This document shows, piece by piece, positions 2 through 34,323 of a stretch of DNA of 43,128 nt. The stretch's first letter is position 1. The number at the start of each line of letters is the position of its first letter. Both the position numbers and the translations under genes were made by a program. Under the pieces are notes generated by a model. The model had not been told where the DNA came from, searched no databases, and saw only the letters and a program-made list of their open reading frames with translations. Source of the DNA: a virus (taxonomy: Duplodnaviria; Caudoviricetes); the IMG/VR virus record IMGVR_UViG_3300029286_000092, positions 1-43,128 of that record. One strand, 5' to 3'.

Positions 2-1462
2 AAGGAACGGGTTGCAGAGATGCACCGGGTATTGAAACCCACCGGAAGCATTTTCCTGCACTGCGACTGGCACGCGAATGCTTATATCCGGGTTGAGATT
101 TTGGATAAAGTATTTGGAATGAATAATTTTCGTAATGAAATTATTTGGAAACGAACTCCGGCTCATACTGATTCAGGAAGATTTGGTATTAATGTAGACT
201 CAATTTTTTATTACACAAAATCAAATAAATTTATTTATAAGGCAACCTATCAACCATATACTGAGGAATATTTAAAAAGATTTCATAAAGATAAAGATGG
301 TCGACAATGGATAGATGATAATCTTCTTGCCAAAAATTTAAGTGGTGGTGGTTACGAATATTATTATAAAGGCATTACTGTAATTTGGAACTGTCCTATC
401 GAAACGATGAAAAGATATGATGATGAAAACAGATTACATTATACAAAGAACGGAGGAATTAGACTTAAAAGATATTTGGACGAGTTAAAAGGACTACCCT
501 GTCAAACAGTCTGGACTGATATAAATCCTGTAAATTCACAAGCTCAAGAAAAGATCGGATACCCCACCCAGAAACCCGAAGCCTTGTTGCATCGTATTAT
601 CGAAGCTGCATCCAACGAAGGAGACACTGTGCTCGATCCCTTTGTAGGCGGGGGCACTACCATAGCCGTGGCCGACAAGCTGCACCGCAACTGGATCGGT
701 ATTGATCAATCGGTGCAAGCCGTAAAAGTAACCGAGATGCGCCTGCAGAACCAGATGGACTTGTTTAGCAAACCGTTCATCGTACAGCTTCATAAATACG
801 ACTACGATACACTCCGGTACAGGAATGCTTTCGAGTTTGAAAGCTGGATAGTTGCCCAATTTGGCGGCACCCCTAACCCAAAACAACGCAACGACCTGGG
901 CATGGATGGCAAAACAAAAGACAATGCCCCCATACAGGTAAAGCGAAGCGACAACATAGGGCGCAACGTGGTGGACAACTTCATTTCGGCAGTGCAACGA
1001 TACGACAGAAGCCTCTTTGAAAAGAACAAAGCGGAGATGAAACCGATCGGCTTTATAATTGCTTTTTCGTTTGGCAAAGGTGCAATACAGGAAGTGGCCA
1101 GGCTAAAGAACCATGAAAACGTAACTATCCAACTGGTTACGGTGGAAGAGATTGTACCAATAGCCAAAAAGCCAGCTCTCACTGTTGAGCTTTCAGACAA
1201 ATCAGTTGATGGCAAAGGCCAGCACGAAATTGAATTTAAAGCTACCGGAAAGAGTACGGCCGGCATTGAGTTTTACTCCTGGGATTTCGATTACAAGGAA
1301 GACACTTTTAAAGCAGAAGTACTGCTTGACAAGAAAGGCGAACAGGTACGGAAATTCAAAGCCGGACTGCACCATATTGCCGTAAAAGTAGTGGATAATG
1401 ACGGGCTGGAGAATACTGAAATTATCAGGCTGAAGGTGAACGGGAAGGTAGAGCGGCAATAA
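2..1462 (+). CDS. Beta-class N6/N4 DNA methyltransferase fused to Mrr-like PD-(D/E)XK nuclease and C-terminal PKD/Ig-like domain (5'-truncated by the window)
   Basis: Motifs GSIFLHCDWHA, NEIIW, YPTQKPEALL, VLDPFVGGGTT; then FESWIVAQFGG..D.GMDG..IQVKRS (Mrr-like); then YSWDFD..G.H.IAVKVVDNDG (PKD-like). Frame is open to position 2 (KERVAEM) and the DPPY motif is absent, so it presumably lies upstream. Confidence 0.85.
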   Translation, partial: KERVAEMHRVLKPTGSIFLHCDWHANAYIRVEILDKVFGMNNFRNEIIWKRTPAHTDSGRFGINVDSIFYYTKSNKFIYKATYQPYTEEYLKRFHKDKDGRQWIDDNLLAKNLSGGGYEYYYKGITVIWNCPIETMKRYDDENRLHYTKNGGIRLKRYLDELKGLPCQTVWTDINPVNSQAQEKIGYPTQKPEALLHRIIEAASNEGDTVLDPFVGGGTTIAVADKLHRNWIGIDQSVQAVKVTEMRLQNQMDLFSKPFIVQLHKYDYDTLRYRNAFEFESWIVAQFGGTPNPKQRNDLGMDGKTKDNAPIQVKRSDNIGRNVVDNFISAVQRYDRSLFEKNKAEMKPIGFIIAFSFGKGAIQEVARLKNHENVTIQLVTVEEIVPIAKKPALTVELSDKSVDGKGQHEIEFKATGKSTAGIEFYSWDFDYKEDTFKAEVLLDKKGEQVRKFKAGLHHIAVKVVDNDGLENTEIIRLKVNGKVERQ

Positions 1463-19508: not shown

Positions 19509-19736
19509 ATGAAGCTATCAGAACAGATAATACACATCGAATTCAATAACCCAAAAGCCCACCTACATTTCGGTTCGTTGGCAGCTGTTTACGAATATTT
19601 GACTTCCGAAGATGTCGGTATCTCCCTGAATGCCTTATACCGTAAAAAATCATTCAAGGAAAAAGGACAGATTTCCACCAATAAATGTATTATTACCAGG
19701 GCTGAGGTACTGCGCAAAAAACATAAACCATGTTAG
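19509..19736 (+). CDS. Small basic hypothetical protein (possible DNA-binding)
   Basis: FGSLAAVYEYL....VGISLNALY pattern; overlaps the ARH start. Confidence 0.65.
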   Translation: MKLSEQIIHIEFNNPKAHLHFGSLAAVYEYLTSEDVGISLNALYRKKSFKEKGQISTNKCIITRAEVLRKKHKPC

Positions 19737-20503
19737 GTGCTATTATCGGGGATATTGTCGGGTCCCGTTTTGAGTTCGACAATTGCCTGAAAACTAATTT
19801 TATTTTTTTTCATCCTGATTGCGGGTTTACTGACGACACCATATGTACTGTTGCCGTTGCCGACTGGATAATAAACCAAAAAGGCAACCTTTCAGATATT
19901 ATGCGTTTATGGTGCAACAAATATCCAAGCTCATATGGCGGCATGTTCGGCCGCTGGCTGCGCGACGACAAGATGGGTGCATACAATAGTTTCGGGAACG
20001 GGTCCGCGATGAGGGTTTCGCCCGTTGGGTGGCTTTTCAACGATGTTGCCGACGTGAACGAAATGGCAAAAAGATCAGCCTCGATAACACACGACCATCC
20101 CGAAGGAATTAAAGGGGCGCAGTGTATTGCCACATCAATACTTCTTTTAAGGCAGGGTATAAGTAAGCAGGACCTGAAGATGTATATTGAAACAACCTAC
20201 GGGTATATGCTCGATCTGAAGTGTAGTTGGATACGCATACATAACCGGTTCGATGAAACATGCCAGGTCACCGTACCCCAGGCAATAGCCGCATTCATCG
20301 AAAGCACCGGCTTTGAATCCGCAATCAGGCTGGCTGTATCGATCGGTGGTGATAGCGATACCATTGCAGCGATAGCAGGAAGCCTTGCAGAAGCATGCTA
20401 TGGAGTACCTGAATGGATGGTTGAAAAAGCTATGGGGTACTTGCCTGAAGACATGTTGTCAATAATTCGCAACTTTATCGAAAAACAAAGCATAAATGAA
20501 TAA
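19730..20503 (+). CDS. ADP-ribosylglycohydrolase (DraG/ARH family)
   Basis: GAIIGDIVGS, FTDDT, SFGNGSAMRVSP, THDHPEG, GGDSDTIAAIAG. Confidence 0.93.
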   Translation: MLGAIIGDIVGSRFEFDNCLKTNFIFFHPDCGFTDDTICTVAVADWIINQKGNLSDIMRLWCNKYPSSYGGMFGRWLRDDKMGAYNSFGNGSAMRVSPVGWLFNDVADVNEMAKRSASITHDHPEGIKGAQCIATSILLLRQGISKQDLKMYIETTYGYMLDLKCSWIRIHNRFDETCQVTVPQAIAAFIESTGFESAIRLAVSIGGDSDTIAAIAGSLAEACYGVPEWMVEKAMGYLPEDMLSIIRNFIEKQSINE

Positions 20504-20804
20504 TCAACTTTTAGGTCAGTGCCTGTATTACAAAGGTGAAAAAGACTGTCCTCCGGCATTGAGAGCTTCCGATAAGCAAATGATGTGGTTCTACGAAAGC
20601 CTTTGGGTAAAAAATAGCGGGCATTTTGACGATAATGGAGAATATGAGGCCAATGGGCTGTCTGACTTTGAAAAAGACGACGGTGTCGGATTAACGCTAA
20701 AAAAGATGCTTTTTAACCGGTTCATACAAGATGCGTGGAACGTAAAAGAATCAATTCCGCTTTTCAAAAAATGGTATGTTGAAAAGTATAAAGGAAGAAA
20801 TTAA
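20496..20804 (+). CDS. Hypothetical protein co-transcribed with ARH
   Basis: Overlaps the ARH stop; CLYYKGEKDCP..WFYESLWV..LFNRF. Confidence 0.7.
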   Translation: MNNQLLGQCLYYKGEKDCPPALRASDKQMMWFYESLWVKNSGHFDDNGEYEANGLSDFEKDDGVGLTLKKMLFNRFIQDAWNVKESIPLFKKWYVEKYKGRN

Positions 20805-23287
20805 ATCTGCCCTATCACTTCTACATCAATATACCATTTTCCCCCCGCTTTTTCAACCTTCAATACCCTGAACTTAGTTGATCTTTGCAGCAACATTTCT
20901 GCCTCATATCCAAAGTCTGATTGTATCTTAATTCCATCCCAATTAACTGATTTTGCTCCATTTCCAAAGGCTGAAAATGGTTCAGTATAAATCATTTTTG
21001 TTCCTTGTGGGCAATAGATGTTGTAAATTACTGGGCGATCAGCAAATCCTGCACCTTTGGCGTTCGCGCAAGACGAAAAGCCAGGTTCAATTCCTTCTTT
21101 GCCTACCAGGGCACTTCTTGCTTCAGTTAAGCTCATGCTTTCAAGCTCACGGCCAAAGATGCCATTAACGCTGTCATGATATACACCACGTTGTATCCAC
21201 ATATCGAAGTCATACGAAGATCTATCTATAAGATTTGTTATGTGCTCGCCATCAACCTTCCCATCGTAAACCCCCTTATACTGGCCTGAATAGTATTGCT
21301 TCCGTAGCGGTTCATTGATATAGCTGCTTCCAGCAGTATAGCGATAAGCTGCTTTTTTTTCATCCGAAGTAGCACCTCTCCAAACAGAGCTGCAAACGTC
21401 ACGAACTTTACGATCTGCTTCTGCAGGGTCTTTTGCCCACATAGCGGCATCTTTTCTGGCTTTTGTGTAAGCATGCGCGTCGTATGTGAAGCCTCCCGTA
21501 CTGGAAACCGACTTTCTGATGTCATTCGCCTGTTTGCCCTGTAGTTCGTTTACTTTTAGGTTAAGTTTATTCGCAGCCTTTTGCAGTTGTAAAATTGGCG
21601 CATCCTTATCAAGCATTCCCTGAAGTTCGGCAGCCATGCCTTTTATTGACTTACTCTTTGTTGTTTTTGCGAAATTGAACGATGATTCGCTTAGCGTTTG
21701 TATTTGTTCTTTTTCAACCTGGTATTCAACAACTGCAAGCCTTTTTTTGTAAGCATCCTGAGCGCCTTTCCACGTGCTGTACTTCTTGTTCTTTTCAACC
21801 CAGCCAATTTCGTATTCAAGCTTTGTCTTTTGCTGTTCAAGCGAAAGATTCTTCCAGGATGCGAGCTTTGTTTCAACCGCTTTATACAGATCCCGGGTTG
21901 CTTCTACTCCATGTTGTGCTTTTATCGCTTTTACGTTGTCCAATAATGTTGAAAGTTGCGCCTCTTCCGCACCGGCTTCCATGATCTTTTGTTCAATTAT
22001 TTTTGATGCGGTTTGTATTCCATTGATATTCTTTGAGATGATATGCTGTTGAAGTGCTGTAGTGTCAATTTCAGGGAATTCATTTGCTCCCTTCAGCACA
22101 GTCTTACCCTCGTTGACAACAAGTTGATTTTGAAGTTTCCTTTCATCCCATTTGGTTTGAATAGCTGCCTTTTCAGATTCGGTTTTATTCCTTTTCTTCT
22201 TAGGAACAGGCAAATCTGATTGCAAATTTAGCCCACCCGAAATAGTACCTCCCTGAAAGTTATCTTTGATAAAATACGGTTGCGACCTCCATGCTTTTGC
22301 TCGTTCCTTATTTTCATCAATCCAGTCAGTGAATCCAGTGGGAGGTGCTGATACCGAATTGGGGCTTCTATATCCCGAAATATCTTCTCCGGCCAGCAGC
22401 TTGTCCTCGATGGCATTATACTCTTCCTCGTCTACCATCAGGCTGATCAGGTGGCACCGGCATTGGGGGTGCCATCCAGTGAATTTGAATTCTTTCGGGT
22501 ATTTGCCTTTCATCCGGTCGCAGATGTCGTTCACCGGGTGGTTGTTGCTTAATTTTACCTCGAACCCGTTCACAAAAGGCAGTTCTTTCATCCGCTCATG
22601 GTCGGCAGTCCTGTATGCCATGTTCACCTCGGTTCGGGCTAAGCGCATTGCATTCTTATGGCTGGATCGGTAAACTCCCTGTCCCGGGTGATAATCGGCC
22701 GCATTTTTACTCAACTGCAAAGCCCCATTCTTATCCCGTACCCTTCTGAAAAGCTTATTCTTTTCGTTCAGATATTGCTTTACTACCCTCGACAAGTCCT
22801 GGGCACTTGTTTTTTCGGCAATGGCAACATCTATCGCCATTTCTATCTCATCCTTATACTGGTTTGAGTACAACCAAACCCTGTCAGAGAGTTTAAGCCC
22901 GGCCTGCTTCCTCTGCAAAAACGATTGAAGCCCTTTTTGGTTGCGGTTGTAGAAAATTTCTTCCTGAACAATTGAAAGTTTGGATTTATCAATGCCAAAC
23001 GAAGCGATCATATTGTCGTTTTTGATATTCGCCTGGAGCCATTCGGAACAAATAGCGTTTTCGATCTTCAATTGCACACCATCCGCAAGGGATTTTATAT
23101 AGCCATTGACCCTCGTTTTTATCTCAGGATAGTCGTCAAACCGGAAGGGTGTTGATTTATCGGGATTTAGGTTTGCAAACAGCCTGGAAATGTCCCGGAG
23201 GGTTTTTGCATAGATATCCTTGACAGATTGCGCGGTTGCTTCAATGCGGTAAAAATGCGCGGCATCATCAATTCCAGATTTTTTCAT
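20801..23287 (-). CDS. MuF/gp7-like head morphogenesis protein with C-terminal ADP-ribosyltransferase toxin domain
   Basis: LSDRVW, RLARTEVNMAY, DICD...GKYPK.F.FTGWHPQCRC (MuF); YTAGSSYINEPLR, IQRG, GFSSC, YEAEMLLQR (VIP2/C2-like R-S-ExE ART). Confidence 0.88.
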   Translation of the reverse strand: MKKSGIDDAAHFYRIEATAQSVKDIYAKTLRDISRLFANLNPDKSTPFRFDDYPEIKTRVNGYIKSLADGVQLKIENAICSEWLQANIKNDNMIASFGIDKSKLSIVQEEIFYNRNQKGLQSFLQRKQAGLKLSDRVWLYSNQYKDEIEMAIDVAIAEKTSAQDLSRVVKQYLNEKNKLFRRVRDKNGALQLSKNAADYHPGQGVYRSSHKNAMRLARTEVNMAYRTADHERMKELPFVNGFEVKLSNNHPVNDICDRMKGKYPKEFKFTGWHPQCRCHLISLMVDEEEYNAIEDKLLAGEDISGYRSPNSVSAPPTGFTDWIDENKERAKAWRSQPYFIKDNFQGGTISGGLNLQSDLPVPKKKRNKTESEKAAIQTKWDERKLQNQLVVNEGKTVLKGANEFPEIDTTALQQHIISKNINGIQTASKIIEQKIMEAGAEEAQLSTLLDNVKAIKAQHGVEATRDLYKAVETKLASWKNLSLEQQKTKLEYEIGWVEKNKKYSTWKGAQDAYKKRLAVVEYQVEKEQIQTLSESSFNFAKTTKSKSIKGMAAELQGMLDKDAPILQLQKAANKLNLKVNELQGKQANDIRKSVSSTGGFTYDAHAYTKARKDAAMWAKDPAEADRKVRDVCSSVWRGATSDEKKAAYRYTAGSSYINEPLRKQYYSGQYKGVYDGKVDGEHITNLIDRSSYDFDMWIQRGVYHDSVNGIFGRELESMSLTEARSALVGKEGIEPGFSSCANAKGAGFADRPVIYNIYCPQGTKMIYTEPFSAFGNGAKSVNWDGIKIQSDFGYEAEMLLQRSTKFRVLKVEKAGGKWYIDVEVIGQI

Positions 23288-31071: not shown

Positions 31072-33833
31072 TTAAAAGTTCTTTTCTTGGTTAAATAAAT
31101 TTGCTACCAGGTCAACGATGCTCTCCGCTACCTGCTCAGTGGCCCCGGTGATGGTTTTGGCAATCTCACGCTTAGTCTGTATGATCTGGTAAATCTTCTC
31201 GTCAATCGTATTCTGCCCTAAAAAGTAAGTACACGTAACACTATCCTTTTGCCCTATGCGGTGGCACCTGTCCTCGCACTGGTCGGTGTCGGCTGCTGTC
31301 CAGGGTAGCTCTACAAATGCCACCCGGGATGATGATGTTAGCGTTAACCCTACCCCTGCTGCCTTTATGCTGCACACTATAAGTTTTACATTCTTGTTGT
31401 TCTGAAAGCTGTCAATAGCATGTTGCCTGGATGGCATATCATCTTCACCAGTGATACTAACGGCCTTCGGGTAGTGCTCTTTTATGGCATGGATAACTTC
31501 TTTCAGGTGTGCAAACAGCACAAGCTTTTCACCCGATTCAAGTATATCATCAACAAACTCGTACACATCGGCCAGCTTCCCACGGGCTGAAATATTCTTG
31601 AGGATCCCGATTGTTACCATGATCTCACCCCGCAGGCTCCTGGCTATTTTCTCATCATCGGCATCCTTGTATTCGCGCAGGTATTTTATCAGGTCGGCTT
31701 CCGCATCCTGGTACTCCTTTCGGGTTGATATTTCGCATATTGCCACCTGGCGCATCTTATCCGGTAGGTCCTTCAATACATCCTGCTTGTCACGGCGATA
31801 GAAGCAGGTAAGGTTCAGTTTATAATTTAGTTCCCGAAGGTTGCTGGATTCGTCGGCTCCTGAGCAATAACGCTGTGTGAATGCTGTGTACCCTCCGAAA
31901 GCATTCATCTGGTCGATGATGCCTAACTGCGATATCAAATCCTTTGGTTTGTTGATCACCGGCGTTCCGGTAAGGGCAAGGATGTATTCCTTCCCGGTGC
32001 AGATACCTTTACTAAATTTTGCCTGCTGCGTTTTCGAATCCTTACAGTTTGAAACTAAAATTCCGTTGGCAAAATAGTTGTGATTGTCGGATATTTCTAA
32101 ATCATATACTTTTTCAATTCTTCCAGTACTGCCGGTAAATCCGTCAAAATTTGCTGATTGGTAAACCTCACAACTTTCCACCCTAACGAGTTCAAGACCT
32201 TCGTTTTGAACTGATCTATTATTTTGATCTCCGCAGTTTTGTGAGAATGCCCATCTACCTCTATGGAAAGCCTTATTTCCGGAATAGCAATGTCCGATTT
32301 GTAGCAATAGGCCACCTTGTGAAACTGGCCTTTTACTGAATCCGTTATGATTGGAAATTCCAGTGCTGATTCCGGCAAATTCAATGCCTCCCATAGCTTC
32401 AATTGTGGCTCTGTCATTTGACCATTTCCGCCCCTGGATGGAAACGGACGTCCTTTGAGTTTTGCCGAAATCTTTTCCGATACACCGGGCATGTGAATAG
32501 GGTTGTTTGCCTTCATTCGGTCGGAGTGCATTTTTCTCAATTCCGGGTTTTGCATCTGGATTGTAGCAGCAATTCTCATTTTCTCTCGGTGTTCGGGGGT
32601 TCTGTTTCCGTCTGAAGCCCCTGGTTGAGACATCCTCCATTTTGCCGAACAGCTTTGAGTGCAAAACCTGTTTGCTTTGTGCCTCTTTACGAAAAAGGAT
32701 TTTCCGCACCACTGGCAGATTCTTTCCACTTCCGGCTTGGCTCTCTGTAAAGTTTGCAACGCTTTGATTTCCGGTCTTGCATTTACCATTTTCGAGGCGC
32801 AACTCTTTGAGCAACATTTCGCCGTTGTCTTCCCTGATTTCACTGTTAAAAATGGATTCCCGCAACAAATACAAATAATCTCCACTTTCGATTTCAGATA
32901 CTTCCTTGAACCGTCCGGCTGAAGTATATATTTTGTGGTTTTCTGTTGCCGTGAATTCTCCTTTTTCATGCCTGACTTTGTAGAGTTGTTTAAATCCTGT
33001 TTCATTTTCCCAGAGTGTTTTAATTTGCTTTAAAGATACTGATAAATCTGATAAATTAACCGACTGAACAAGCAAATTAGATAACTTTTTTTCAACAATC
33101 TCGCCAATCGGGATTAGCCCCTTGTTTGTCGAAATTTTTGTTTCATAAGGAAAACACCTATGCGATTCATCAATGATCACACTCTTGAACATACCTACAA
33201 ATTGCCTCTTGAAATGGATATGGTTGATGCGGAGCTTCTGCCCTTTCGGGATTTCGATCTTCTCTACAAAATACTTTTTCAGGCTTTCGTAGTTCACAAT
33301 GAATACCTGTATCAGGTTGGCCTCCCAGAACAGGTTGAAGTTCCTTTTTACCGAATCGTTCAATATCATGCACTTTTTGTTTGTCCACATCGCCCATTCC
33401 CTCTCCCAGTTTACCTTCAGGCTTGAGGGTGCTATCACCAGGCATGGAAATGCGTTGGCAGCGGTGATGGTGGCGATGGCCTGTGCCGTTTTACCCAGGC
33501 CGGGCTGGTCTCCGATGATAAGTTTCTTCTTCTCCAGGGCATAAGCTACCCCTGTAGACTGGAATGGGAACAGTTCCATCTTGAGAGGGATCTGTACGGT
33601 AAGTTGTGGAAGTGGGGGTATTTCCGCATAGGTTTCGTCAACCGTATCGGCGATGAATGTGAACCCGTTGCGGGAAGCGAAATTCCGGACATCATCCTCG
33701 TGGAATGAAGGTACTATCCAGCATTTGTTCACCGGGTCGAACCTCCGTCCGGGAAGCTCTTTCACCTTATCCACCAGGTAAGGGTTGTAGTGGAAAGCTA
33801 TGCGGAAATAATTGCCTGATTGGTGATCTGCAT
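31072..33833 (-). CDS. SNF2/SMARCAL1(HARP)-like helicase interrupted by an intein; apparent frameshift near codon 5
   Basis: GDQPGLGKT, NYESL, IIDESHR/CK, LTGTPVIN, GVGLTLT, QCEDRCHRIGQ. The long open frame is 31072-33774; the natural-looking ATG at 33833 is out of frame. Confidence 0.88.
32047..33156 (-). mobile_element. Intein (370 aa) in helicase motif II
   Basis: Block A CFPYETKISTNKGLIPIGEIV, block B FTATENHKIY, block F KVYDLEISDNHNYFANG, block G ILVSN followed by +1 Cys; excision restores DESHRCKD. Confidence 0.92.
32097..33005 (-). CDS. Putative homing endonuclease (2x Cys4 Zn finger, NUMOD3-like, DUF559/Vsr-like nuclease) nested in the +1 frame of the intein
   Basis: CICCGNPF..CCSKSC; CQWCGKSF..FCTQSC; RTPEHREKMR; MTEPQLKLW.AL, YKSDIA, IEVDGHSH, D..K..VLNSLGWKVVRFTNQQI. 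Confidence 0.85.
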   Translation of the reverse strand: MKQDLNNSTKSGMKKENSRQQKTTKYILQPDGSRKYLKSKVEIICICCGNPFLTVKSGKTTAKCCSKSCASKMVNARPEIKALQTLQRAKPEVERICQWCGKSFFVKRHKANRFCTQSCSAKWRMSQPGASDGNRTPEHREKMRIAATIQMQNPELRKMHSDRMKANNPIHMPGVSEKISAKLKGRPFPSRGGNGQMTEPQLKLWEALNLPESALEFPIITDSVKGQFHKVAYCYKSDIAIPEIRLSIEVDGHSHKTAEIKIIDQFKTKVLNSLGWKVVRFTNQQILTDLPAVLEELKKYMI

Positions 33834-33838
33834 ATTAA

Positions 33839-34117
33839 TCAGAATGGGAGATCGTCTTCTTTTTGGGTATTGTCAATAAGTTCCTGAGCATTCACAACTT
33901 CAGAATAAGAATGGCTGTTTGGGTAGGCAACAATTCTATAGGCCTCTTCCAGTTTCGCTGCGTTCCTGGGGTTGTTCGCCTCTACAAACTTCTTCGCTGC
34001 GTCAAGAGCCTGTGTTGCCGTTTCGTCTGCAGCCAGTTCGATTTCGATCCCGACTTTTTCATTCTGGTAATTGCCCAGGTTGAAACATTTTTCGTAATAA
34101 ATTCTCGTTGCTTTCAT
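33839..34117 (-). CDS. Hypothetical phage protein
   Basis: FNLGNYQNEKVGIE motif; acidic DDLPF tail. Confidence 0.7.
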   Translation of the reverse strand: MKATRIYYEKCFNLGNYQNEKVGIEIELAADETATQALDAAKKFVEANNPRNAAKLEEAYRIVAYPNSHSYSEVVNAQELIDNTQKEDDLPF

Positions 34118-34323
34118 TGGTTTGTGATTTTAGTTAATGGATAAATCTGTGATTTTTTGAAAGGCAGGTAACCCGCCCCGGGAACAAACAATGTAACCAC
34201 ATTGCCCGATGGGTTGAGGGCTACCCGGTACTCCCTGAACTCGTTTTTCGCTATTTTCAAAGCTACTTTTTGCCCGTTGTAAATGTTTCTGCGCCAGCGC
34301 AATAGTTCAAAATATTCTAACAT
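34114..34323 (-). CDS. Hypothetical protein
   Basis: ATGA overlap with the next gene; likely ATG at 34323. Confidence 0.55.
   Translation of the reverse strand: MLEYFELLRWRRNIYNGQKVALKIAKNEFREYRVALNPSGNVVTLFVPGAGYLPFKKSQIYPLTKITNQ

What the first reader, a model, noticed from the sequence alone, without database searches (positions are those of the whole stretch)
32047..33156. Intein carrying its homing endonuclease as a nested gene in a different reading frame (dual-coding intein)
Seen: the helicase frame is open straight through a 370-aa intein with intact splicing blocks A, B, F and G. Between B and F, where a LAGLIDADG or HNH domain normally lies in frame, the intein sequence has no recognisable domain and looks like the shadow of another frame. 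The +1 frame on the same strand (33005 to 32097, 302 aa) encodes a coherent protein: two Cys4 Zn fingers, a NUMOD3-like segment and a DUF559/Vsr-like PD-(D/E)XK nuclease (IEVDGHSH...LGWKVVRFTN). Its ATG lies just before block B (a second ATG follows near 32970) and its TAG lies inside the block F codons (TAT GAT TTA GAA). A crude uniform-composition estimate gives about 14 stops in 300 unselected codons; both frames have none. Established: inteins spread by homing, and Vsr-like nucleases act as phage homing endonucleases. Inference: the endonuclease is made as a free protein, by internal initiation or +1 frameshift, uncoupled from splicing, while the intein frame is kept open so the helicase can still be made. 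I cannot verify from here whether this architecture is already described.
Basis: partly seen in the sequence, partly recalled or inferred. Interest (0 to 1): 0.93.

Follow-up and report, generated by a model that had tools for sequence, protein, structure and literature searches.

The report
Intein hiding a frame-shifted homing nuclease
A self-splicing protein insert (intein) in a phage helicase gene carries, one base out of frame on the same strand, a second complete gene for a Vsr-like nuclease that is likely made as a separate protein and likely spreads the insert; out-of-frame intein nucleases are already in print, but this form turns up in over a hundred distinct relatives, including cultured phages.

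Summary
Real and well supported, but the general kind is already described. The phage SNF2 helicase frame is open through a 370-aa intein (33156-32047). The +1 frame holds a 302-aa ORF (33005-32097): two FCS-type Cys4 fingers and a DUF559/Vsr-like nuclease. Contigs from other runs show no indel in the parts of the intein they cover. The layout is the norm for this family: 174 of 182 strong nuclease matches (124 of 131 clusters) sit +1 inside an open host frame. All 124 match an intein C-terminus; the insertions lie at or just after Walker B of helicases and clamp loaders. Selection acts on the nuclease frame (median dN/dS 0.17 versus 1.42). Conserved start codons and ribosome-binding signals favour internal initiation; expression, splicing and cleavage are untested. 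The nearest extein (85% identical) is empty, as homing predicts. Out-of-frame intein nucleases are in print (Gosselin 2025, Phillips 2026, both citing Gorbalenya 1998); I found no report of a sense-strand +1 Vsr-like family. The scan met this layout before on other DNA (e1-6453502). Cultured phages phi673 (intein) and phi674 (empty) form a ready test pair. Verdict: new variant of a known kind, interest 0.52.

The parts
33157..33833 (-). N-extein of a phage SNF2-family helicase, ending in Walker B/motif II DESHR. The probable start is the ATG at 33833; in the window's assembly the frame is open only from GTG 33774.
   Evidence: Pfam SNF2-rel_dom E 9e-20. Contigs of runs X1, X2 and X3 carry one extra base at 33819, and the sequence from 33819 matches the N-terminus of the L002 helicase (84%).
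32047..33156 (-). Contiguous class-1-type intein, 370 aa, in frame with the helicase
   Evidence: TIGR01445, TIGR01443 and PF14890 above cut-offs. Predicted Hint fold, best matches DnaE inteins.
32857..33156 (-). N-terminal splicing region (residues 1-100): Cys1 and block B T71-x-x-H74 (32946-32935). Residues 51-100 are dual-coding.
   Evidence: pLDDT 81-91. C1, T71 and H74 invariant in 16 homologues.
32047..32196 (-). C-terminal splicing region (residues 321-370): block F Y351-D352...H359 and terminal S369-N370; Cys is the +1 residue. Residues 321-353 are dual-coding.
32197..32856 (-). Intein-frame linker (residues 101-320), predicted disordered: the shadow of the nuclease gene
   Evidence: pLDDT <50 over 103-213 and 215-317. 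Host-frame identity 27-32% against 44-59% in the nuclease frame.
32097..33005 (-). Nested +1-frame ORF, 302 aa: putative Vsr-like (EDxHD-type) homing endonuclease
33006..33025 (-). A-rich, unstructured upstream region; the likely SD-less translation start of the nested gene
   Evidence: Scores above 98% of 200 internal ATGs with a matrix built from 36 window genes. Folds less well than 199 of 200 shuffles.
32799..32873 (-). Cys4 finger 1 (C45, C48, C65, C69)
   Evidence: Invariant in 11 sequences; zf-FCS in homologues
32649..32717 (-). Cys4 finger 2 (C97, C100, C115, C119)
   Evidence: Invariant in 11 sequences
32109..32360 (-). DUF559/Vsr-like nuclease domain with E216, D238, E249, D251, H255, D264
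   Evidence: Conserved in 91-100% of 123 family members. Matches 3hrl and I-Bth0305I 3r3p.
31072..32046 (-). C-extein of the helicase, starting CKDSK
   Evidence: Pfam Helicase_C E 6.5e-12. Empty allele L002 reads DESHRCKSS.

Best explanation
This is an intein in a phage SNF2 helicase gene whose middle encodes, in the +1 frame, a separate Vsr-like nuclease that is likely translated from its own internal start codon and likely cuts intein-free copies of the gene so that the whole insert spreads by homing. Shown: both frames are open, the nuclease frame is under purifying selection, splicing residues are conserved, and the layout is shared family-wide. Inferred steps: (1) ribosomes starting at the helicase ATG read through the intein frame, and the Hint domain splices out itself and the 220-residue disordered shadow, giving intact helicase; (2) other ribosomes start at ATG 33005 on the same mRNA and make the free 302-aa nuclease; (3) its Cys4 fingers and basic helices bind near the Walker B codons of an empty allele in a co-infecting phage, the Vsr-like domain cuts, probably 3' of the insertion site, and repair copies in the intein with a few 3' flanking codons; (4) the +1 phase persists because a host-frame stop there needs T in a nuclease wobble position, which a silent change always removes. 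Origin is inferred as invasion of a mini-intein by a free-standing nuclease aimed at the same motif.
For: Family-wide phase: 174 of 182 loci at E<1e-12 (80/80 viral, 76/80 metagenome, 18/22 genome), 124 of 131 clusters at 95%, none in +2. All 124 representatives match an intein C-terminus profile and 116 an N-terminus profile. Hosts are SNF2, ResIII/DEAD, UvsW, DinG-like and UvrD helicases and DnaX-like clamp loaders (31 of 124 scanned). dN/dS is lower in the nuclease frame in 92 of 92 computable pairs (of 108, not independent), medians 0.17 against 1.42; window against L088 0.16 against 1.37. The wobble position switches from host to nuclease frame inside the intein and back after the stop. 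Initiation: an ATG lies before the first CxxC in 101 of 109 inteins (59.7 expected; maximum 80 in 20,000 simulations). SD matches of >=5 nt precede 44 of 172 such ATGs against 52 of 851 internal ATGs (p 1.6e-12). The ATG at the window's position is kept in 9 of 9 subfamily members with no +1 stop in the next 45 codons, against 2-8 stops upstream. Mobility: the nearest extein (L002, 85%) is empty; one clade of intein alleles is rejected (AU p 1.8e-4, 16 rows). Asp at +3 is in 7 of 8 intein alleles and 0 of 8 empty ones. The phi673 and phi674 helicases are 99.1% identical outside the intein and differ at +1, +2, +3, +9 and +24 but not for 161 nt upstream. Phase cost: T precedes AA/AG/GA codons 0 times in 9,419 junctions (about 2,640 expected); unavoidable stops are 0 in phase +1 and 5 in phase +2 for this protein. 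Free-standing relatives lie beside intein-less helicases (L093, L174, L176, L182).
Against: There are no expression, splicing or cleavage data. The window's start has no SD. Two internal ATGs (32579, 32492) score as well as or better than 33005 on the matrix. The ATG is built from the intein's invariant Asn51 codon plus the next G, so its conservation is partly forced by the intein frame (AAT is 51 of 78 Asn codons elsewhere). Patchy presence could be repeated loss, and the label shuffle on the extein tree was not significant (67 of 500 as low). dS is near saturation in most pairs. Foldseek gave no match at E<=0.001 for the nuclease model (best 1.3e-3; pTM 0.37). Free-standing members are scattered in the nuclease tree, so the direction free-to-nested is not established. 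The intein has Ser, not His, before the terminal Asn.
Confidence: 0.8

Rival explanations
1. The nuclease is made by a programmed +1 ribosomal frameshift from the helicase/intein frame, as a fusion to the N-extein and part of the intein.
For: Same strand and a fixed +1 phase across the family. No SD at the window's ATG. Eight of 109 relatives have no ATG before the first CxxC.
Against: ATG excess and SD enrichment in relatives. The +1 frame closes 4-10 codons upstream of the conserved ATG in 9 of 9 subfamily members. The 5' end of the +1 frame varies widely across the family rather than sitting at one site. I did not run a dedicated search for slippery sites.
Confidence: 0.07
2. Both proteins are made, but the nuclease no longer drives homing of this intein: it is a relic kept by recent selection, or serves another end such as cutting competing phage DNA, and the patchy pattern reflects loss.
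For: The target site is unknown. DUF559 also occurs in free proteins: 50 of 58 weak genome hits had no open overlapping sense frame. A few relatives are broken (L104, L166, L140).
Against: Strong purifying selection and intact catalytic residues. One-sided 3' differences and a Val-to-Cys change at +1 in phi673 against phi674 fit gain by conversion. Free members sit next to the same host genes.
Confidence: 0.08
3. The intein does not splice efficiently and the helicase tolerates or is inactivated by the insert, so the open host frame is a tolerated loop like the ShiLan element.
For: Ser in place of the penultimate His. A 220-residue disordered linker.
Against: Splicing residues are invariant. 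The host frame is the better conserved one in the splicing regions (54% and 76%). A solved DnaE intein also ends in ASN. +1 is Cys or Ser at every C-terminal junction printed.
Confidence: 0.04
4. Assembly artefact: two compensating indels moved an in-frame nuclease out of frame.
For: The window's assembly does hold a one-base deletion elsewhere in this gene (33819).
Against: No indel inside the intein in contigs of X1 (whole stretch), X2 (all but 32566-32600) or X3 (part); X1 and X2 may be the source. The same phase in 124 clusters and in five cultured phage types. Both frames are conserved where they overlap.
Confidence: 0.01

Closest known systems
Non-canonical actinobacteriophage inteins (Gosselin, Arsenault, Gogarten; bioRxiv 10.1101/2025.01.02.630785; abstract, passages and section 15 read)
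   Same: Contiguous phage inteins whose nuclease is in another frame, including VSR-like ones matching 3R3P; unstructured in-frame middle; proposed origin by invasion of a free-standing nuclease; signs of continued transfer.
   Different: Their VSR-like nucleases are antisense and their same-strand case is endonuclease VII in frame 3. Their hosts are polymerase, minor capsid, terminase and thymidylate synthase. They call the layout rare and say the second ORF typically lies outside the splicing domain.
Cyanobacterial DnaX intein (Phillips et al., bioRxiv 10.64898/2026.09.14.751524; sections 3, 10 and 17 read; Gorbalenya 1998 known only as cited there)
   Same: Overlapping '+2 ORF' nuclease with putative SD motifs, disordered in-frame linker, low dN/dS in the nuclease frame and high in the host frame; host is a clamp-loader ATPase.
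   Different: LAGLIDADG nuclease, one chromosomal gene, described as a rarity.
EDxHD / Vsr-like homing endonucleases, I-Bth0305I (Taylor 2011, PMC3239194, passages and section 17 read)
   Same: C-terminal Vsr-like domain with the counterparts of E170, D196, H213 and D222; N-terminal modular DNA-binding region; similar size.
   Different: Intron-encoded, with NUMOD repeats; here FCS-type Cys4 fingers and an intein host.
Fractured genes with split inteins (Dassa 2009, PMC2677866, passages read)
   Same: Same-strand Vsr-like gene with its own start between intein halves, overlapping the C-terminal half by 6-69 bp.
   Different: There the host is split into two ORFs and must trans-splice; here the host frame is continuous.
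ShiLan element (Arsenault 2025, PMC11855218, abstract and passages read)
   Same: Out-of-frame nuclease inside an open phage gene, actively homing.
   Different: HNH nuclease, third frame, no splicing domain.

Membership tests
Class 1 intein | Cys/Ser at position 1 and Cys/Ser/Thr at +1 | tested here: met
   C1 and +1 Cys; C1 in 111 of 111 bounded relatives. Feature list from PMC11855218 passages and recall.
Class 1 intein | Block B TxxH | tested here: met
   T71 and H74, invariant in 16 sequences
Class 1 intein | Block F Asp and terminal Asn | tested here: met
   D352 and N370
Class 1 intein | Penultimate His (usual, not universal) | tested here: not met
   Ser369; SN in 39 and HN in 70 of 111 relatives; the DnaE intein 7qil also ends ASN
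Class 1 intein | Hint fold | tested here: met
   Model matches 53 PDB chains at E<=0.001, top hits are inteins
Class 1 intein | Protein splicing activity | not testable with these tools
   Needs an expression assay
EDxHD / Vsr-like homing endonuclease | Catalytic E, D, H, D residues | tested here: met
   E216 91%, D238 100%, H255 100%, D264 100% of 123. D264 aligns with I-Bth0305I D222; H255 is one residue off H213. E216 and D238 were assigned by spacing.
EDxHD / Vsr-like homing endonuclease | Vsr-like fold | tested here: met
   Profile hits 3hrl E 8.5e-13 and 3r3p E 0.0025; Foldseek top hits 3hrl and 3r3p, probability 1.0 but E 1.3e-3 to 3.3e-3
EDxHD / Vsr-like homing endonuclease | N-terminal NUMOD repeats | tested here: inconclusive
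   No Pfam NUMOD hit; zf-FCS fingers and basic helices instead
EDxHD / Vsr-like homing endonuclease | Cleaves the uninterrupted allele, spares the occupied one | not testable with these tools
   Only indirect signs
Non-canonical intein with out-of-frame nuclease (Gosselin 2025) | Contiguous intein with the nuclease in a separate frame | tested here: met
Non-canonical intein with out-of-frame nuclease (Gosselin 2025) | VSR-like subtype is antisense | tested here: not met
   Sense strand, +1; all three opposite-strand frames hold 15-21 stops
Fractured gene / split intein (Dassa 2009) | Host gene split into two ORFs | tested here: not met
   One 900-aa ORF

The most novel reading that the evidence does not exclude
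Out-of-frame nucleases are not a rarity but a major, unannotated way inteins travel. One Vsr-like family has colonised Walker B of SF1 and SF2 helicases and clamp loaders across many phage lineages, locked in the +1 phase because only that phase lets the nuclease keep its sequence at no cost while the host frame stays open. It makes its nuclease as a free protein from a start that can lie inside the splicing domain, and it brings its own +1 Cys by 3' co-conversion. Many inteins filed as having a decayed or unknown middle would then be active homing elements.
Probability: 0.55. Interest if true: 0.68.

Novelty: new variant of a known kind. Interest (0 to 1): 0.52.

Why it matters
Two recent preprints call out-of-frame intein nucleases rare, and neither shows their expression or cleavage. 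This family has at least 124 distinct members with the same phase, and the nested gene is unannotated in the five cultured-phage records I opened. It gives a large natural set for studying overlapping genes, a testable reason for the fixed phase, and new candidate site-specific nucleases aimed at a conserved ATPase motif. The pair phi673/phi674 in Corynebacterium glutamicum makes the open question, whether an out-of-frame nuclease is expressed and mobilises its intein, directly testable.

Tried and rejected
No RNA holder was listed for the locus, which says nothing on expression. A sigma-70 scan found no promoter in 32900-34300; it does not cover Bacteroidota promoters. No start-occluding hairpin was found at the nested ATG. 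A tblastn of the intein frame against 50,697 phage records found nothing, while the nuclease frame found 40 records. A viral scan with the intein N-terminal alignment gave 14 loci: 8 were already-held subfamily members and 6 were weaker. I opened one of the 6 (L254), an unrelated intein in a ligase-like gene, so no mini-intein or in-frame form at this site was found. I dropped 58 genome hits with E>=1e-12 before the main count; 7 had an open host frame in the +1 arrangement, 1 in +2 and 50 none. Thirteen of 124 representatives lacked a resolved intein end and were left out of the geometry counts. Codon adaptation did not separate the frames (0.77 against 0.76). Run X4's small share was laid and covers only C-extein fragments. 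Paper searches 'intein overlapping DUF559' and 'intein nested gene phage helicase' returned 0; 'intein Vsr-like overlapping frame' returned 4, of which the bypass preprint (passages read) mentions one VSR intein without stating its frame, and the mirusvirus paper was seen only in the listing. Gorbalenya 1998 was not read. The library lacks most subscription papers. No complex prediction was run.

Full report
Context. The window is a 43-kb virus record with terminase, portal, major head, tape measure, DnaB, RecT and ParB genes, so a tailed phage. None of 36 window genes has an SD match of 5 nt or more, and 28 have A at -13. That is the Bacteroidota pattern described in PMC6847099 (abstract and passages read), so a Bacteroidota host is inferred, not shown.

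Observation. The SNF2 helicase ORF is open through a 370-aa insert between DESHR and CKD that passes both TIGR intein models. The empty allele L002 reads DESHRCKSS and fixes the boundaries. A fold model has a confident Hint domain (residues 1-100, 321-331, 349-370) matching DnaE-type inteins and pLDDT <50 between. The +1 frame encodes 302 aa with two FCS-type Cys4 fingers and DUF559. Its closest solved relatives are 3hrl and the homing endonuclease I-Bth0305I. Shuffling or recoding the nuclease gives 17-21 stops in the intein frame on average and never fewer than 5 in 20,000 trials each; none is observed. Contigs from three runs show no indel in the parts of the intein they cover, though two may be the source; all three show one extra base at 33819, outside the intein.

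Family. Scans with nuclease-only patterns kept the best 80 of 166 viral, 268 metagenome (42 of 64 parts scanned) and 237 genome hits. Of 182 loci at E<1e-12, which include duplicates and the window's own record, 174 have the frame one base behind the nuclease open across the match; none has the other phase. That is 124 of 131 clusters at 95% and 111 of 118 at 70%. All 124 representatives match an intein C-terminal profile and 116 an N-terminal one. Junctions are DE|C/S in most and DExH|C or DExxx|C in the rest, the window's subfamily included. Pfam on 31 of the 124 hosts gave SNF2, ResIII/DEAD, UvsW, DinG-like, UvrD, helicase-methylase and DnaX-like proteins. The nuclease stop lies in the last 26 codons of all 111 bounded inteins, and the first ATG precedes the block B His in 28. 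Forty cultured-phage records match; the five types opened (CP-T1, phi673, MR14, a Vibrio lentus phage, 159E43-1b) all have the +1 layout with the nested gene unannotated. The phi673 paper noted the intein only (PMC6132909, passage read). Of the 8 exceptions, four are free-standing genes beside intein-less helicases (L093, L174, L176, L182), L129 lies near one, L104 is the same intein with one stop, and L142 and L166 look fractured or broken.

Selection. In nine subfamily members the most variable codon position is the host wobble in codons 0-75 and after 350, and the nuclease wobble in 75-350. Both frames are conserved where block B (43% nuclease, 50% host) and the last strands (58%, 43%) overlap. 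Nei-Gojobori dN/dS is lower in the nuclease frame in 92 of 92 computable pairs, medians 0.17 and 1.42. The pairs are not independent and many are near saturation; the less saturated pair L012/L092 gives 0.17 and 1.23. Catalytic residues are conserved in 91-100% of 123 members.

Expression (inferred). An ATG precedes the first CxxC in 101 of 109 inteins against 59.7 expected, and SD motifs are enriched there (44 of 172 against 52 of 851). In the window's SD-less subfamily the ATG is fixed in 9 of 9 and scores above 93-100% of 200 internal ATGs on the phage's own start matrix. Against this, two internal ATGs score as high in the window, and the codon is partly dictated by the intein's Asn51. Internal initiation is the best reading; a frameshift is not excluded.

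Homing (inferred). The window's nearest extein (85%) and four at 75-76% are empty, whereas intein alleles have 46-62% extein identity. Holding the 8 intein alleles together is rejected (AU p 1.8e-4), though a label shuffle was not significant. Asp at +3 goes with the intein (7 of 8 against 0 of 8). phi674 has Val at +1 where phi673 has Cys, with further differences at +9 and +24 and none for 161 nt upstream. Both fit 3' co-conversion. Splicing domain and nuclease distances correlate (Spearman 0.43, 0 of 500 permutations as high; nearest neighbour agrees in 59 of 111), so they mostly travel together but not always.

Why +1. In this phase a host stop is T|AA, T|AG or T|GA, with T at a nuclease wobble position, and a silent change always removes it. 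T is absent at all 9,419 such junctions (about 2,640 expected). For the window's protein, unavoidable stops are 0 in phase +1 and 5 in phase +2. This is my inference; published frame-3 cases show the other phase is possible.

Comparison and novelty. It works like the out-of-frame nuclease inteins of Gosselin 2025 and Phillips 2026 and belongs to that broad kind. It is not their antisense VSR-like subtype, nor a fractured gene of Dassa 2009. Seven searches on this question found no description of a sense +1 Vsr-like family at Walker B. Preprint supplements were closed, and Gorbalenya 1998 was seen only as cited. Earlier agents of this scan reached a similar reading on other DNA; my reading was formed before I looked.

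Noticed in passing
window 33819: One-base deletion in the window's assembly near the helicase start. Contigs of three runs carry an extra base, which would put the ATG at 33833 in frame, as in L002.
   Followed up: yes
window 19730-23287: Minor-head (MuF-like) protein with a C-terminal ADP-ribosyltransferase domain (20801-23287, -) faces an ADP-ribosylglycohydrolase (19730-20503, +) and a 102-aa ORF (20496-20804, +). It looks like a phage toxin-immunity module; the MuF label is recalled.
   Followed up: partly
L267:993-3503 and L271:301-1905: Corynebacterium phages phi673 and phi674: helicases 99.1% identical, a 302-aa intein with an unannotated +1 nuclease in phi673 only, and a Val-to-Cys change at +1.
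   Followed up: yes
L033, L057, L112, L138: A clade with the junction DEA(S/T)R|CKE in a host that Pfam did not name (L033); same three-codon shift from DE| as in the window's subfamily.
   Followed up: no
L063:1510-5403: Helicase with two inteins: one with the +1 Vsr-like gene and one with an in-frame LAGLIDADG domain.
   Followed up: no
L142:189-1981, L104:2-1543, L166:1504-3237: Possible split or decaying forms: the host frame is broken under the nuclease. L142 may be a fractured helicase gene.
   Followed up: partly
L093, L174, L176, L182: Free-standing members of the nuclease family directly beside intein-less SF2 helicase genes; possible ancestors or escapees.
   Followed up: partly
L262, L263, L264 near 2230: Empty alleles with Val instead of Cys at the insertion site (DESHRVKS); an intein could splice there only if it brings its own Cys.
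   Followed up: partly
L254:2129-4291: Unrelated intein of about 360 aa, ending HN|C, in a DNA-ligase-like phage gene; the ligase label is from motifs recalled, not scanned.
   Followed up: no
window 20-1462: N6/N4 DNA methyltransferase on the + strand at the record's left end.
   Followed up: no
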